IMG/VR virus record: IMGVR_UViG_3300050343_000110 | Origin: a virus | Direction: 5' to 3' (one strand) | Length of the DNA: 64,000 nt | Part shown: positions 36,416-60,445 of the stretch, one piece after another | Numbering within the stretch: position 1 is the stretch's first letter | Layout: every line of letters starts with the position of its first letter | Program-made: the position numbers and the translations under genes | The notes under the pieces: model-generated | What the model was told of the DNA's origin: nothing | Databases searched by the model: none | What the model saw: only the letters and a program-made list of their open reading frames with translations

Positions 36416-37768
36416 TTGACACGCTCGTTTACAGATTTTATCACAGAAGAAAAGCAACTAGAAAACTACAAAGTAGTTATTCTTACAGTTGAGGTGGGTG
36501 ATAAATCTAAGACTGCAATCAAGTTTGAAAAAGAGGCAAAGAAGATGGGTATGGAAGTTCTTTTATCAGACTTCAAAACAACATCCCTGACCTTTAATAA
36601 TGGTAAGTATACTCTAAACAACAAAGACAAAAGTATGGACATCAGTTCCAAAGATACTGTTGTGTTTGTTAGAGGAACACCAACCAGAGATAGTCATCTA
36701 GACTTGATTTCAGAACTAGAAAGAATTGGTATTACTTGTATTAACAACAGAACTACTATCAGTATTTGTGCTGATAAGTATCGTAGTTATGTGAGACTAA
36801 AAGATTTCAGATTAGACCAACCCAAAAGTGTTCTTGTTCCTACAGAAGATGATATTGATTCTGCATTAGAAGAGCTTGATACCAAGTTTCCTATCATCCT
36901 CAAAACTCTTAGGGGTGCAGGCGGTGTTGGTGTTCTATTTGTTGAATCGAAACGTGCATTAGATTCTCTCGTACAATTAATTTATAAACAAGACCCAGAA
37001 ACAGATATTCTCATTCAAGAATATATCAAAACAGATGGTGACATTCGTGTTATTATTGTTGGTGATAATATTGTTGGTACAATGAAACGAGAAGTTGTTG
37101 AAGGAGATTTTAGAAGTAACTATACACAGGGTGGTGGGGTAAAATCTTACGACTTATCAGAAGAAGAAATTCGTCAATGTCTAATTGCTGCAAAGGCGGT
37201 TGATGGTGATTTTGTTGCAGTGGACTTTATTCCATACAAAGGTAAACCATACTTTTTGGAAGTAAACAGTTCGCCTGGCACAGAAGGTATTGAAGAAGCA
37301 AACTCTGGTTTGAACATTGCAAAAGAAGTTCTAGAACACTACAGGGATGTAAACAATAGATTTACTTCTCCTATCAGATGTGGTTTTCACGAGATGGTAA
37401 ACATAAAGCCATTTGGTGAAATCGAAACAAAGTTTGATACAGGGAATAGTGCATACTCAGTATTGCACGCTACTGACTTAAAAACTAGTGGTAGCAACAT
37501 CACGTTTACTACAGTAGGTGGTAAAACACATACTGCTAAACTAGAAAAAGAATATAAAGCAAGAACAGGGGGTGGAGTTGATGAACGCCCTATTGTTAAG
37601 TTAGAAGTCGAATTCATGGGCCATACACACGAACTGATGTTTGGGCTTGATGATAGAAATAAAAGAGGAACAGAAGTTCTTCTAAATAGATTTGCCATGA
37701 AAGAAATGAACGTCATGGTAGACCCTCAGAAGAAGTTGATTATTACTACAAAGAAAGGCGAAAAATAA
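36416..37768 (+). CDS. RimK-family ATP-grasp ligase fused to a retropepsin-like (RimB-type) aspartic protease
   Basis: DKY, KTLRGAGGVGV, IQEYI, DIRV, FRSNYTQGG, EVNSSPG; C-terminal KFDTGN. Confidence 0.85.
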   Translation: MTRSFTDFITEEKQLENYKVVILTVEVGDKSKTAIKFEKEAKKMGMEVLLSDFKTTSLTFNNGKYTLNNKDKSMDISSKDTVVFVRGTPTRDSHLDLISELERIGITCINNRTTISICADKYRSYVRLKDFRLDQPKSVLVPTEDDIDSALEELDTKFPIILKTLRGAGGVGVLFVESKRALDSLVQLIYKQDPETDILIQEYIKTDGDIRVIIVGDNIVGTMKREVVEGDFRSNYTQGGGVKSYDLSEEEIRQCLIAAKAVDGDFVAVDFIPYKGKPYFLEVNSSPGTEGIEEANSGLNIAKEVLEHYRDVNNRFTSPIRCGFHEMVNIKPFGEIETKFDTGNSAYSVLHATDLKTSGSNITFTTVGGKTHTAKLEKEYKARTGGGVDERPIVKLEVEFMGHTHELMFGLDDRNKRGTEVLLNRFAMKEMNVMVDPQKKLIITTKKGEK

Positions 37769-47103: not shown

Positions 47104-47111
47104 TATAAATA
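47104..47111 (+). promoter_or_regulatory. T4-type late promoter TATAAATA
   Basis: Heads the block of putative internal head proteins. Confidence 0.75.
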
Positions 47112-57756: not shown

Positions 57757-58253
57757 GTCTAAAATTCGATGACATTATGAAAAAATTCTATGATGACCCA
57801 TCACTAGGTATCAAGACTGAAGATGCTCCTACCAACAATGCTGGTAGTGGTGCAGTCTCTATGCCACCTGATGCGGCAATGAAGAAGAAAAAGAAAAATC
57901 CATATGATGGTAGAACTAAAGAAGCAAGGCAGTTCTATAAGAGAATGGAAACGCTTCGTGCAAGAAGAGAATCTAGGCTTGCAAAGAAAGTTCAAGAGAA
58001 TACTATTGAACAGGCAAGTTATTTTGCAGAGAGTAATCTTGATGTGTTGAAAAAGATTGTAAAAGACAAACAACACCAAAATGTCAAATTTAAAGATGGG
58101 AATATGAAAGTGGACTTGTTCACTGCCTCAGCAGTAACACAAGTATATGACAAAGTTAATCGTTCCAACCAACAGAAGATGGATAAAATGTTGAATGGTA
58201 AGAAGGCAGAGTTTATGAAGATTGCCAACTTTGCACTTTCAAAGGTTAAATGA
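57753..58253 (+). CDS. putative head protein
   Basis: EDAPTNNAGSG, YDGRTKE, VDLFTASA motifs. Confidence 0.5.
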   Translation: MSLKFDDIMKKFYDDPSLGIKTEDAPTNNAGSGAVSMPPDAAMKKKKKNPYDGRTKEARQFYKRMETLRARRESRLAKKVQENTIEQASYFAESNLDVLKKIVKDKQHQNVKFKDGNMKVDLFTASAVTQVYDKVNRSNQQKMDKMLNGKKAEFMKIANFALSKVK

Positions 58254-59215
58254 AGAACTTTGCAAACTATATTACAGAACAAACTCTGTCTAAATCTGAC
58301 TTAGATGGAGTCGAAAAGTATGCAGATAGATTGTATGCGGCCGCTGGTATTGACGTTGAGTTTACCAGACATTTTCTTGACAGAGTAAATGACAGTCGTA
58401 ACAAGAAACAGATTACTGTGGCAGAACTTATTCGTATGTTTAAACAGTCTTATAAAAAGTTTGGTAAGAAGATTGCGAAACTTGGCCCTGATGCAGAGGC
58501 GGTATTAAATGATATGCAAACAGATATCAATATGCCCTTTGTTCTCAAATGGGATGGTAAAGAGTTAGACTTAATTGCAAAGACAGTAATGAGAAAGAGA
58601 AACTTTGGAACAACGAATCCAAAGTTAAGTTTTGAAGAATTTGAATTCTTTCCTGAAAACTTACATGAAAGAATTGTGCTTCCTGAACCCCCTACAGATT
58701 TACAAAAAGAAGCAGACAAAGTAAAACAGATTATTGCGAATAGGACTCCAGAAGATGAACAGTCTATTCGTATTCACGATGAGAATTCATTTTACGCTAT
58801 TGACAAATATTGTGAAGAACATGGGTTATTATTTCACGATAGTGAGATGAAAGATATCGTGATGCAAGCAAAACCCACAATCAAATATTTTAAAGAACAT
58901 TTCAATATTGATAGACCTCACGAAGTTGATCCGTCTATCAAACCAATGTCTAGTACTACAAACAAGACTAGAGCCTATCCAAGTGGACACGCAACTCAAT
59001 CAATGTTAGTTGGGTTGTACGTTTCTGCAAAGTTTCCAGAACATGAGGATGGTATAATCAGGGCCGCAAAAGAATGTGGACTTGGTAGAGTGAAAGCAGG
59101 ATTTCATTATCTTGCAGATTATGTCGCTGGCAATTTACTTGCAGAAAAAATGTTCCTAGTTATGAACAAAGATAACTATGGTAAATATATAAAGGAAGAA
59201 ATTGATGGCGCCTAG
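58250..59215 (+). CDS. PAP2/acid phosphatase domain protein with an extra N-terminal domain
   Basis: K..F...RP, YPSGH, RVKAGFHY.AD. Confidence 0.75.
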   Translation: MKNFANYITEQTLSKSDLDGVEKYADRLYAAAGIDVEFTRHFLDRVNDSRNKKQITVAELIRMFKQSYKKFGKKIAKLGPDAEAVLNDMQTDINMPFVLKWDGKELDLIAKTVMRKRNFGTTNPKLSFEEFEFFPENLHERIVLPEPPTDLQKEADKVKQIIANRTPEDEQSIRIHDENSFYAIDKYCEEHGLLFHDSEMKDIVMQAKPTIKYFKEHFNIDRPHEVDPSIKPMSSTTNKTRAYPSGHATQSMLVGLYVSAKFPEHEDGIIRAAKECGLGRVKAGFHYLADYVAGNLLAEKMFLVMNKDNYGKYIKEEIDGA

Positions 59216-60272
59216 AAATCACAAACAGTGGAAATCAGTTCCAAACGTAGAATACATTTCAAGTGAATGTTATAATAACAACAGCATATTCCAACAAGAA
59301 CAAGAACTAATCTTCAGTAAAGTTTGGATTCCTATGTGTCACATCAGTGAGATGTATGAAAAGGGAAACTATAGAACAACGCAAATAGCAGGACAAAATG
59401 TTATTGCATATAATACAGGGGAACTTGGTGCAAGAGCATTTATCAATAATGGGCCTCAGATGCCTTCTGGTAAACTGTGGAATGATGATACCTTTGGTAG
59501 AGAACTGCATTGTGAAATAAAACATGGTGGTATGGTTTGGGTTACACTAGACCCTAATCCAACACAGAGTGTGGATGAATGGACTGCTGGTGCATTTGAT
59601 TGTATTGCAGAAGCAATTGACACAGAAGAGATGGAAGTATTCCACTACCACAAAGCCATTATAAATACAAACTACAAGTTATGGCACGATACTAACTCTG
59701 AGTTCTACCACGACTTTATGCACTACTTTAATCGTGTGTCTGGATTCAATGATGAGTATTTTGCTAGAAAAAATATCCCTTTCGACAATGGCCACGTTAA
59801 TGTTAGTTCATTTACAGTCAACTACGAAGAGTACGATGGGTTTGAGGATAGAGGCGAACTTAGTTTCCCTAACCTCCCCCCTAATCAATGGTACATGGTT
59901 GACTTATTTCCTGGCTTTAACTTTAATCTTAGAGGGAGTGCTTATAGAAGCGATAGTGTTACGCCTCTGGGCCCGAATGAAGTTCTTATAGAATTTCGTG
60001 GATATGGATTAAGAAAAGACACAAAAGAAGAAAGACAGACTAGAATTAAACATCATAATTCTATCTGGGGCCCGTTTGGTAGAAATCTCCATGAAGATTT
60101 GATTGGAGTTGCTGGACAGGGAACGACTATGCGTGAAGGAACAGAAGCACGAAATATCCTACACGGTAGACATGAGAATGGAACTATCCACGATGAAGTG
60201 GGTATGAGACATTACTATGGTGCATGGGGTGATATGCTGGGTGTAAATCCAGAACAACCTCTCGCCGCATAA
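59205..60272 (+). CDS. msmA: methanesulfonate monooxygenase alpha subunit (MsmA)-like protein lacking the Rieske cluster motif
   Basis: EVFHYHK..INTNYKLWHDTNSEFYHDFMHYFNRV, PLGPNEVLIEFRG.GL, HNSIWGPFGRNLHEDL.GV, HGRHE..TIHDE.GMRH match MsmA as I recall it; no CxH...CxxH. Confidence 0.75.
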   Translation: MAPRNHKQWKSVPNVEYISSECYNNNSIFQQEQELIFSKVWIPMCHISEMYEKGNYRTTQIAGQNVIAYNTGELGARAFINNGPQMPSGKLWNDDTFGRELHCEIKHGGMVWVTLDPNPTQSVDEWTAGAFDCIAEAIDTEEMEVFHYHKAIINTNYKLWHDTNSEFYHDFMHYFNRVSGFNDEYFARKNIPFDNGHVNVSSFTVNYEEYDGFEDRGELSFPNLPPNQWYMVDLFPGFNFNLRGSAYRSDSVTPLGPNEVLIEFRGYGLRKDTKEERQTRIKHHNSIWGPFGRNLHEDLIGVAGQGTTMREGTEARNILHGRHENGTIHDEVGMRHYYGAWGDMLGVNPEQPLAA

Positions 60273-60283
60273 AGGAGACTAAA

Positions 60284-60445
60284 ATGAAAAATTGGATTAA
60301 ATCACGAATCGCAGAAAGAACATCTTGGGATGGTGCAGTATGTATCGGACTAGGAGTTATGATTCTATTCATGGCACCTCTTGCCAAGATTGCAGCAGGA
60401 CTTGCAATTGCATGGGGAGTTTGGACAATTTGGAAATCAGAATGA
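60284..60445 (+). CDS. small membrane protein
   Basis: 53 aa read by hand (MKNWIKSRIAERTSWDGAVCIGLG...WKSE), AAGGAG RBS, two hydrophobic segments. Confidence 0.6.
   Translation: MKNWIKSRIAERTSWDGAVCIGLGVMILFMAPLAKIAAGLAIAWGVWTIWKSE

What the first reader, a model, noticed from the sequence alone, without database searches (positions are those of the whole stretch)
59205..60272. Phage MsmA-like Rieske oxygenase alpha subunit with the Rieske [2Fe-2S] segment deleted in frame
Seen in sequence: an intact 355-aa ORF whose C-terminal two-thirds closely matches methanesulfonate monooxygenase alpha as I recall it. The mononuclear Fe ligands (EFYHDFMH...HEDL) are retained. Between RAFIN and RELHCEIKHGGMVWV the CxH...CxxH cluster-binding region is replaced by a short linker (NGPQMPSGKLWNDDTFG, about 59445-59500) with no frameshift. 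No beta subunit, ferredoxin or reductase lies nearby. Established knowledge: in alpha3beta3 Rieske oxygenases, electrons pass from one alpha subunit's cluster to the neighbouring subunit's iron. Inference: the protein may co-assemble with host MsmAB as a modulator or dominant-negative, use another electron source or a peroxide shunt, or act as an MSA/iron-binding protein. That would link a phage to the DMS-derived organosulfur cycle through an apparently repurposed AMG.
Basis: partly seen in the sequence, partly recalled or inferred. Interest (0 to 1): 0.85.

Follow-up and report, generated by a model that had tools for sequence, protein, structure and literature searches.

The report
Phage carries half a sulfonate oxygenase
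This marine phage gene encodes the catalytic half of a methanesulfonate oxygenase; SAR116 bacteria carry the same cluster-less form next to a partner protein that keeps the missing iron-sulfur cluster, so the "deletion" is most likely a normal two-part enzyme design and not a phage-specific repurposing.

Summary
Window 59205-60272 is an intact 355-aa MsmA-like oxygenase alpha subunit. It keeps the iron motif (E166, H169, H173, D298) and lacks all four Rieske ligands, through a net loss of about 48 residues.

It is not an artefact. At least 600 IMG/VR stretches and more than 1,100 metagenomic protein clusters share the form, under strong purifying selection. The scan has also flagged it on other phage DNA.

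It is not new as an observation. Phage HMO-2011 carries the gene, and Henriques & De Marco (2015) already noted that phage and virome MsmA lack the CxH...CxxH motif.

What I add:
- The short form (S) is also a cellular gene in SAR116 msm clusters.
- There it always co-occurs with a roughly 800-aa protein (F). F is an MsmA paralog with an intact Rieske module, a destroyed iron site and a fused ferredoxin reductase. MsmB, a Rieske ferredoxin, a sulfonate-binding protein and TauE lie in the same cluster.
- No S-bearing genome examined has a canonical MsmA.
- A controlled complex model places F's cluster loops against S's iron site.

Best reading (0.6): the phage supplies the catalytic half of a split, NdmCDE-like oxygenase that uses host partners. 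This phage is a Melnitz-like myophage and its host is unknown.

The parts
59205..60272 (+). CDS of the Rieske-less MsmA-like oxygenase alpha subunit ('S'), 355 aa plus stop
   Evidence: ORF and translation. PF00848 match. 69.7% identical to HMO-2011 gp61, annotated 'methanesulfonate monooxygenase'. 55% identical to canonical MsmA. AF2 model has pLDDT 89, and the best fold matches are Rieske oxygenase alpha subunits TPADO, NagG and CntA.
59193..59196 (+). Shine-Dalgarno-like AGGA, 8 nt before the ATG. The CDS start overlaps the end of the upstream gene (stop at 59215).
   Evidence: Sequence read directly. ORF table.
59205..59447 (+). Residues 1-81: retained N-terminal part of the former Rieske domain (beta-sandwich core without cluster loops)
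   Evidence: Matches the start of the Rieske domains of CntA and anthranilate dioxygenase. Modelled as strands 42-81 with pLDDT 88-98. dN/dS about 0.16 in viral copies.
59448..59498 (+). Residues 82-98 (NGPQMPSGKLWNDDTFG): short linker in place of the two cluster-binding loops. The first CxH is substituted and the second CxxH hairpin is deleted, for a net loss of about 48 aa.
   Evidence: Alignments with canonical MsmA. This segment evolves almost neutrally in viral copies, with dN/dS about 0.67.
59700..59723 (+). EFYHDFMH (E166-H173): putative bridging carboxylate E166 and iron ligands H169 and H173
   Evidence: Present in 103 of 103 short forms and 15 of 15 canonical MsmA. Nearly invariant in alignment A1. 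In the complex model, residues 168-172 touch the partner's Rieske loops. The assignment as ligands is by homology, not measured.
60084..60101 (+). NLHEDL (N294-L299), with D298 as the putative third (carboxylate) iron ligand
   Evidence: Present in 103 of 103 short forms. This segment is deleted in every F paralog. The ligand assignment is by homology.
58637..60283 (+). Accessory insertion of about 1.6 kb relative to Methylophilales phage Melnitz: a PAP2 phosphatase domain appended to a Melnitz gp31-like protein, followed by the S gene
   Evidence: In Melnitz, the homologue of residues 13-129 of the 58250-59215 protein (gene 31) is followed directly by gene 32. By size (53 aa) and position that gene corresponds to window 60284-60445. 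The DUF1353 gene lies 1.6 kb downstream in Melnitz against 3.0 kb here. PAP2 domain at residues 213-304.

Best explanation
The gene encodes the catalytic (mononuclear-iron) half of a two-part, SAR116-type methanesulfonate monooxygenase.

In SAR116 bacteria the ancestral MsmA alpha subunit exists as two complementary paralogs:
- S is about 362 aa. Its Rieske ligands are lost and its iron site is intact.
- F is about 800 aa. Its Rieske module is intact, with the MsmA-specific CPH-x26-CMFH. Its iron ligands are substituted or deleted, and it is fused to an HcaD-type ferredoxin-NAD+ reductase.

The proposed electron path is NADH, then the F reductase domain, then the Rieske ferredoxin, then the F Rieske cluster, then across the subunit interface to the iron site of S, with MsmB as the structural beta subunit. 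S then splits methanesulfonate into formaldehyde and sulfite.

The phage carries only S. During infection the phage copy would assemble with host F, MsmB and ferredoxin, and so raise or sustain this activity for sulfur and C1-derived energy.

Shown here: the anatomy of S and F, their co-occurrence, the pattern of selection and the modelled interface. Inferred: the physical heteromer, methanesulfonate as substrate, the benefit to the phage, and that this particular phage's host has F.
For: 1. S is intact and strongly constrained. Viral dN/dS is about 0.07 overall and 0.04 in the catalytic domain, while the linker that replaced the cluster loops is at about 0.67. The iron motifs are kept in 103 of 103 copies.

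2. S is also cellular. In 10 SAR116 loci the gene order is SsuA/MsmE-like binding protein (opposite strand), F, MsmB, Rieske ferredoxin, a 274-aa unknown protein, S, LysR (opposite strand) and TauE, followed by PanB-like, FTHFS and FolD genes. In two further genomes the same set lies about 10 kb from S.

3. F has the mirror-image defect in all three subtypes examined. The Rieske ligands are intact. The Fe motif is deleted, or changed E to K, H to Q and H to K. The NLHEDL segment is deleted.

4. Conservation is also mirror-image. F's Rieske module is 83% identical among SAR116 genomes and 67% to canonical MsmA. F's ex-catalytic module is 39% and 31%. S's catalytic module is 94% and 79%.

5. Of 192 Puniceispirillales genomes, 17 have MsmA-like genes: 15 carry S, one a lone F-like fragment and one a canonical MsmA only. 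None combines S with a canonical MsmA. In at least 13 of the 15 S-bearing genomes an F-type match is also listed, and the exceptions are fragmented assemblies.

6. Complex model of phage S with F residues 30-400: ipSAE 0.78 against a best control of 0.00. That mark was reached by 58 of 80 solved complexes and 2 of 110 mismatched pairs. The runs share at least 77% of contacts, and partner pLDDT is at least 83. F residues 89-97 and 121-124 (the CPH and CMFH loops) touch S residues 168-172 and 300-324. This is the head-to-tail geometry of solved Rieske oxygenase alpha trimers, so the pass may reflect likeness to those structures.

7. The 33 modelled interface positions of S are 97% conserved, against 87% elsewhere. 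The phage majority residue equals the cellular one at 32 of 33 positions.

8. There is a precedent. In NdmCDE the catalytic NdmC lacks a Rieske cluster, and the cluster sits on the reductase NdmD (PMC4408171).

9. HMO-2011 infects IMCC1322.
Against: - No biochemical data exist for S, F or any SAR116 MSAMO. The substrate is inferred from 55-79% identity to MsmA of MSA-degrading genera and from gene context.
- The complex score could come from the model's memory of homologous homotrimers.
- A ring of three alpha positions cannot be filled with only productive F-to-S pairs, so the stoichiometry is unclear.
- This window's phage is a Melnitz-like T4-type myophage (TerL 86% identical to an OM43 phage), and its host is unknown. 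F-type proteins were found only in SAR116-like genomes and metagenome contigs, as about 40 clusters. S has more than 1,100 clusters and at least 600 viral stretches. Many S-bearing phages may therefore infect cells without F.
- The rest of this phage genome could not be searched for partners.
- The interface positions overlap the active-site region, which would be conserved in any case.
Confidence: 0.6

Rival explanations
1. S is a working oxygenase that takes electrons from something other than the F paralog. Candidates are the small Rieske ferredoxin docking directly in the space vacated by the lost loops, another host redox protein, or a peroxide shunt. On this reading the phage copy does not depend on a host F protein.
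For: Phage S is far more widespread than F: more than 1,100 clusters against about 40. S occurs in at least three phage types, namely the HMO-2011 podovirus, this Melnitz-like myophage and a 341-kb contig, and none has a partner gene within about 6 kb. An IscA-like Fe-S assembly gene sits just upstream of S in 17 of 88 viral loci and in L168. NifU and a peroxiredoxin follow S in L002. That hints at a phage-side redox context.
Against: In every cellular genome where it could be checked, S sits with F. F keeps precisely the Rieske module under constraint, which is hard to explain if S did not use it. The surface of S that would receive a neighbouring subunit's Rieske domain is its most conserved part. 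No direct evidence exists for any alternative donor.
Confidence: 0.2
2. S is non-catalytic in the phage. It would act as a dominant-negative or modulator of the host oxygenase, or as a substrate- or iron-binding protein.
For: A subunit without a cluster cannot reduce its neighbour, so in mixed rings it would silence one site. In phages the gene travels without partners.
Against: The iron ligands and the catalytic domain are the most constrained parts, with dN/dS about 0.04 and motifs kept in 103 of 103 copies. The same short form is the only iron-site-bearing MsmA homologue in S-bearing SAR116 genomes. It must therefore be the catalytic subunit there, and phage and cellular copies are about 80% identical.
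Confidence: 0.07
3. The enzyme is functional but acts on a substrate other than methanesulfonate, such as another small sulfonate or methylated compound. The link to the MSA cycle would then be wrong.
For: No MSA turnover has been shown for any SAR116 or phage protein. Henriques & De Marco stress that all proven MSA degraders have the full-length form with the x26 spacer. S sits on a long branch of 0.41 from canonical MsmA.
Against: The S catalytic domain is 76-79% identical to MsmA of Filomicrobium, a genus with proven MSA degraders. The cellular cluster keeps an SsuA-family sulfonate-binding protein, a TauE sulfite exporter and THF-C1 enzymes. F keeps the MsmA-specific x26 spacer.
Confidence: 0.1
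4. The gene is a decaying pseudogene, or the deletion is an assembly artefact.
For: None beyond the missing motif.
Against: The frame is intact in hundreds of independent contigs, selection is strongly purifying, and the fold model is confident.
Confidence: 0.01

Closest known systems
Puniceispirillum phage HMO-2011 gp61, annotated 'methanesulfonate monooxygenase' (NC_021864; Kang et al. 2013, cited in PMC4433239 and PMC4928673)
   Same: It has the same Rieske-less short form, 360 aa and 69.7% identical. It also stands alone in a phage genome among structural and lysis genes. Its missing CxH...CxxH motif is already noted in print.
   Different: HMO-2011 is a podovirus of SAR116, whereas this window is a T4-type, Melnitz-like myophage. 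HMO-2011's copy branches outside the clade that unites cellular S and the main viral group, to which the window copy belongs.
[quoted passage not shown]
   Same: It is 55% identical overall and 76% in the catalytic domain, with the same EFYHDFMH and NLHEDL motifs. Cellular relatives of S sit with msmB, a Rieske ferredoxin and an MsmE-like binding protein.
   Different: The window protein lacks the family's signature CXH-X26-CXXH Rieske motif through a net loss of about 48 aa. In phages the gene is not next to msmBCD.
NdmCDE N7-demethylase of Pseudomonas putida CBB5 (Summers et al. 2013, reviewed in PMC4408171)
   Same: The architecture is the same: a catalytic non-haem-iron subunit without a Rieske cluster (NdmC), and a Rieske cluster carried by a protein that also contains the reductase (NdmD).
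   Different: The origin is independent and no close sequence relation was found. In SAR116 the Rieske carrier keeps a whole, degenerate alpha-subunit body and an HcaD-type flavoprotein reductase. A separate Rieske ferredoxin and a beta subunit are also present. No GST-like NdmE equivalent was identified. Nothing here is biochemically tested.
SAR116 'F' proteins, NCBI name 'FAD-dependent oxidoreductase' (for example P0288, Candidatus Puniceispirillum sp.)
   Same: These are the proposed partners of S, encoded in the same msm cluster. Their MsmA-type Rieske module is 67% identical to canonical MsmA.
   Different: They are not in the phage. Databases do not annotate them as MsmA-related. I found no paper that describes their lost iron site.

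Membership tests
Rieske non-haem iron oxygenase alpha subunit (canonical) | N-terminal Rieske [2Fe-2S] domain with CxH...CxxH ligands | tested here: not met
   There is no CxH-x15-30-CxxH in the window protein or in any of 103 short forms and 121 metagenomic homologues. The alignment shows the first pair substituted and the second deleted. Pfam finds no PF00355 match.
Rieske non-haem iron oxygenase alpha subunit (canonical) | C-terminal catalytic domain (PF00848) with a 2-His-1-carboxylate iron site and a bridging carboxylate | tested here: met
   PF00848 scores 30.9 bits, above the 24.9-bit cut-off. E166, H169, H173 and D298 are conserved. Foldseek gives TM about 0.74 to TPADO, NagG and CntA alpha subunits. 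Metal binding itself was not measured.
MsmA (methanesulfonate monooxygenase large subunit) | Rieske motif with the 26-residue spacer, CXH-X26-CXXH, used in the literature as the MsmA signature | tested here: not met
   The motif is absent. It is present in canonical forms and in the SAR116 F paralog. The criterion comes from PMC4433239.
MsmA (methanesulfonate monooxygenase large subunit) | Close sequence relationship to MsmA of proven MSA degraders | tested here: met
   The protein is 53-57% identical over its full length to the long forms of Filomicrobium and Hyphomicrobiaceae, and 76% over the catalytic columns. These are the nearest full-length relatives.
MsmA (methanesulfonate monooxygenase large subunit) | Encoded with msmB, msmC, msmD and the msmE-H importer | tested here: not met
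   No partner lies in the 64-kb window or in 88 phage-context loci. The feature is met for the cellular orthologues of S in SAR116.
MsmA (methanesulfonate monooxygenase large subunit) | Oxidises methanesulfonate to formaldehyde and sulfite | not testable with these tools
   This needs an enzyme assay.
Split Rieske oxygenase of the NdmCDE kind (functional analogy) | Catalytic subunit without a Rieske cluster, plus a Rieske cluster on a reductase-containing partner | tested here: met
   S lacks the cluster ligands. F carries a Rieske module plus Pyr_redox_2/Reductase_C (HcaD-type) in the same cellular cluster. The partner is host-encoded, not phage-encoded.
Split Rieske oxygenase of the NdmCDE kind (functional analogy) | GST-like structural subunit (NdmE) required for the complex | tested here: inconclusive
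   No GST-like gene was seen in the SAR116 cluster. A conserved 274-aa protein with no Pfam or NCBIfam match lies between the ferredoxin gene and S, but it also occurs in canonical msm clusters.
Phage auxiliary metabolic gene | Host-type metabolic gene inside a phage genome, kept under purifying selection | tested here: met
   The window carries a T4-type terminase, tail sheath, scaffold protein and UvsW. S is about 80% identical to the cellular SAR116 gene. dN/dS is about 0.07.

The most novel reading that the evidence does not exclude
The Rieske-less form arose in phages, not in cells. On this reading a phage that had captured a full msmA could afford to lose the cluster, because its product borrowed the Rieske centre of the host's subunit. 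SAR116 later took the phage version back. The host's own MsmA then decayed into a pure Rieske carrier fused to its reductase. A core bacterial enzyme would thus have been remodelled into an obligate two-paralog oxygenase by passage through a virus.

The tree is compatible with this. The cellular S clade is monophyletic and nested among phage lineages, with HMO-2011 and two other phage copies branching outside it. However, the root sits on a long branch and one key node has support of only 0.24.
Probability: 0.15. Interest if true: 0.85.

Novelty: new variant of a known kind. Interest (0 to 1): 0.55.

Why it matters
Viral msmA is routinely counted as a sulfur-cycle auxiliary gene and assumed to be a complete MsmA. 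SAR116 msmA is likewise used as a marker of methanesulfonate use.

If the enzyme is really split between S and F, three things follow:
- The phage gene works only in hosts that supply the Rieske-carrying partner. The gene then becomes a host marker, and its biogeochemical effect depends on the host.
- Surveys that score msmA by the x26 Rieske signature, or by PF00848 alone, each see only one half of the system. F is annotated only as 'FAD-dependent oxidoreductase'.
- Rieske oxygenases gain a second, independent example, after NdmCDE, of cluster and active site on separate proteins. Here it arises by complementary decay of two paralogs, which is a clean case of subfunctionalisation and can be tested directly by reconstitution.

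Tried and rejected
**Searches that gave nothing**
- PHROGs search of the protein: no family.
- NCBIfam: no MsmA model exists, and only weak matches to other oxygenases appeared.
- The window's own assembly is not held. The nearest virus record, G001 (23 kb, 13% complete), has neither S nor any Rieske domain, which says nothing about the whole phage.
- Kang et al. 2013 (PMC3725092) is not held, so HMO-2011 is cited through papers that cite it.
- tRNA scan of the window for host clues: none found.
- Sigma-70 promoter and terminator scan around the gene: not above chance.
- The 50%-representative search returned mostly fragments. It added one divergent short form, P0122, also in a phage-like context next to an IscA-like gene.

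**Readings considered and rejected**
- Artefact or pseudogene.
- A phage-specific deletion. The cellular SAR116 clade has the same loss.
- A conserved phage-side partner gene. The commonest neighbour family is present in only 22 of 88 loci, and those neighbours are lysozyme, DUF3310, IscA-like and similar.

**Caveats**
- Many pairwise dS values are saturated, so the dN/dS figures are rough and come from the less diverged pairs.
- MAG labels such as Verrucomicrobiales, Legionellales and Hellea on phage-like S contigs were not taken as host evidence.
Full report
**Observation**

The ORF at 59205-60272 (+) is intact and 355 aa long. An AGGA sits 8 nt upstream of the ATG, and the start overlaps the stop of the preceding gene.

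Pfam recognises only the catalytic domain of ring-hydroxylating alpha subunits (PF00848, residues 141-345). Residues 17-85 still match the beginning of Rieske domains of CntA and anthranilate dioxygenase. That match ends where those proteins read RAFxNxCPH and the window reads RAFINNGPQ.

I compared the protein with a canonical full-length MsmA from Filomicrobium insigne (L038), which carries CPH-x26-CMFH.
- The window protein is about 55% identical overall and 76% identical over the catalytic columns.
- It has 22 residues where the canonical protein has 70. The first ligand pair is substituted and the second hairpin is deleted.
- EFYHDFMH (E166, H169, H173) and NLHEDL (D298) are intact.
- An AlphaFold2 model is confident (pLDDT 89). 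Its best structural matches are Rieske oxygenase alpha subunits TPADO, NagG and CntA, at TM about 0.74.

**Not an artefact, and not new as an observation**

The same short form is gp61 of Puniceispirillum phage HMO-2011, at 69.7% identity. It also occurs in more than 1,100 metagenomic protein clusters and in at least 600 stretches of IMG/VR. None of 121 close homologues or 103 aligned short forms has a Rieske motif, and all keep the iron motifs.

The literature already covers the observation:
- Henriques & De Marco 2015 (PMC4433239) state that the MsmA of HMO-2011, many GOS and virome MsmA, and one of the two 'MsmA' of the host IMCC1322 lack CXH...CXXH.
- The phage gene has been reviewed as a sulfur-cycle AMG (PMC4928673).
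- Kieft et al. reported purifying selection on viral msmA.

This scan has also flagged the same thing on other phage genomes.

**What the short form is in cells**

A scan of one genome per species found two groups:
- Long forms of 411-423 aa, 53-57% identical, in Hyphomicrobiaceae and other msmABC-bearing Alphaproteobacteria.
- Short forms of about 362 aa, 77-81% identical, in SAR116 single-cell genomes and MAGs.

In SAR116 the short form (S) is a chromosomal gene in a conserved cluster. The gene order is:
- an SsuA-family binding protein, on the opposite strand
- a 795-857-aa protein (F)
- MsmB
- an HcaC-like Rieske ferredoxin
- a 274-aa protein of unknown family
- S
- LysR, on the opposite strand
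- the TauE sulfite exporter
- PanB-like, FTHFS and FolD genes

In two genomes the F-to-unknown block lies about 10 kb from S.

F consists of an MsmA paralog fused to an HcaD-type ferredoxin-NAD+ reductase. Its Rieske module is intact and carries the MsmA-specific x26 spacer. Its iron site is gone:
- In most lineages, LWHDTNSEFYHDFMHY is deleted or replaced.
- In the IMCC1322-type and Magnetovibrio-type variants, the three key residues read K, Q and K or N.
- In all of them, the segment containing NLHEDL is deleted.

Conservation is mirror-image:

| Module | Identity among SAR116 genomes | Identity to canonical MsmA |
|---|---|---|
| F Rieske module | 83% | 67% |
| F ex-catalytic module | 39% | 31% |
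| S catalytic module | 94% | 79% |

Across 192 Puniceispirillales species genomes, 17 have MsmA-like genes.
- Fifteen carry S, one has only an F-like fragment, and one (G181) has only a canonical MsmA.
- None combines S with a canonical MsmA.
- An F-type match is listed in at least 13 of the 15 S-bearing genomes. The others are fragmented assemblies.

G107 has a contig of 2,753,527 bp, which matches my recollection of the IMCC1322 genome size. It carries both F and S.

Databases name F only 'FAD-dependent oxidoreductase'. I found no paper describing its lost iron site or the S/F pairing.

**Mechanism proposed**

S and F look like the two halves of one alpha subunit function, separated by complementary decay of paralogs. 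In Rieske oxygenases the cluster of one alpha subunit reduces the iron of its neighbour (established knowledge). An F-S contact would therefore restore a complete electron path.

A controlled complex prediction of phage S with F residues 30-400 supports this:
- ipSAE is 0.78 against 0.00 for the best of three controls. That mark was reached by 58 of 80 solved complexes and 2 of 110 mismatched pairs.
- The runs agree in at least 77% of contacts, and partner pLDDT is at least 83.
- F's two ligand loops (89-97, 121-124) lie against S residues 168-172 and 300-324, next to the iron ligands.

Homologous homotrimers are solved, so this pass shows likeness to them and does not prove binding.

The modelled interface positions of S are its most conserved part. 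They are 97% conserved against 87% elsewhere. The phage majority residue equals the cellular one at 32 of 33 positions and the canonical one at 30 of 33.

The closest precedent is NdmCDE. There the catalytic NdmC lacks a Rieske cluster, and the reductase NdmD carries it (PMC4408171).

**The phage side**

The window belongs to a T4-type myophage, with terminase, tail sheath, scaffold, UvsW and gp46-like genes. Its TerL is 86% identical to that of Methylophilales (OM43) phage Melnitz.

Relative to Melnitz, S and a PAP2 domain form an insertion of about 1.6 kb between the gp31 and gp32 homologues. GC content is ameliorated to that of the phage.

Neither the window nor any of 88 phage-context loci has MsmB, ferredoxin, reductase or F nearby.

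The tree places all short forms in one clade, with support 0.996. Within it:
- A monophyletic cellular SAR116 subclade of 17 (support 0.94) is sister to the main viral group of 83, which includes the window.
- HMO-2011 and two other phage copies branch outside.

So the form is not phage-specific. There were several host-phage transfers, and their direction is unresolved.

Viral copies are under strong purifying selection. dN/dS is about 0.07 overall, 0.04 in the catalytic domain and 0.16 in the N-terminal remnant. The linker that replaced the cluster loops drifts at about 0.67. Many dS values are saturated, so these figures are rough.

**Weak points**

- Nothing is biochemically tested, including MSA as the substrate.
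- The host of this Melnitz-like phage is unknown. F was found only in SAR116-type sequences, while S is much more widespread in viromes. Some S-bearing phages may therefore rely on another donor.
- A three-membered alpha ring cannot consist only of productive F-to-S pairs.
- The rest of this phage genome could not be searched.

**Verdict**

The most likely reading, at about 0.6, is that the phage carries the catalytic half of a split, NdmCDE-like methanesulfonate monooxygenase native to SAR116. That split architecture appears to be undescribed and is directly testable.

Noticed in passing
window 60261-60272, and viral loci L083-L162: The C-terminus differs systematically between phage and cell copies. 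74 of 86 viral S proteins end in xAA-COOH (41 in LAA, as in this window...QPLAA), which resembles the ssrA/ClpXP degron. All 17 cellular S and 14 of 15 canonical MsmA end in AAE. This could mean different turnover of the phage protein. An earlier follow-up in this scan attributed the LAA ending to the gene family and not to a tmRNA.
   Followed up: partly
window 58250-59215: The upstream, overlapping gene is a fusion. Residues 13-129 match Melnitz gene 31 at 87% identity. Residues 213-304 form a PAP2 phosphatase domain (PSGH...HYxxD) that Melnitz lacks. The PAP2 domain and S together form the insertion relative to Melnitz.
   Followed up: partly
L128:5670-5978 and 16 other viral loci; L168:1072-1470; L002:11481-12428: An IscA-like Fe-S assembly gene (PF01521) lies directly upstream of S in 17 of 88 phage-context loci and next to the divergent short form P0122. 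In the 341-kb contig L002, S is followed by NifU and a peroxiredoxin. This may be a phage-side iron or redox context for the oxygenase.
   Followed up: partly
L010:6921-7745, and homologues in canonical msm loci (for example L052:11416-11778): A protein of about 274 aa with no Pfam or NCBIfam match is conserved in msm clusters of both the SAR116 (split) type and the canonical type, usually near LysR and TauE. It is an unassigned member of the methanesulfonate gene set.
   Followed up: no
L165:6912-11502 (G107, probably IMCC1322); L016, L021: In the IMCC1322-type cluster, about 5 kb with three ORFs (962, 249 and 312 aa) is inserted between the Rieske ferredoxin gene and the 274-aa gene. A published SAR116 study reports dmsABC next to msmA (PMC8547437). 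I did not annotate these ORFs myself.
   Followed up: no
window, whole (for example 2029, 5966, 16400, 47104, 59660): The T4-late-promoter-like octamer TATAAATA occurs 13 times, 12 of them on the + strand, against 4 expected by chance. The last site upstream of S is at 47104, so S may be the end of a long late transcript. One copy lies inside S at 59660.
   Followed up: no
L002 (341,834-bp ENA contig): S sits in a very large phage-like contig together with class I ribonucleotide reductase, glutaredoxin, a cold-shock protein, ribosomal protein S21, CHAP and cell-wall hydrolases. S is therefore carried by at least three very different phage types.
   Followed up: no
window 36416-37768: A RimK-like ATP-grasp enzyme with a C-terminal match to the putative ATP-dependent zinc protease domain lies in a T4-type phage.
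   Followed up: no
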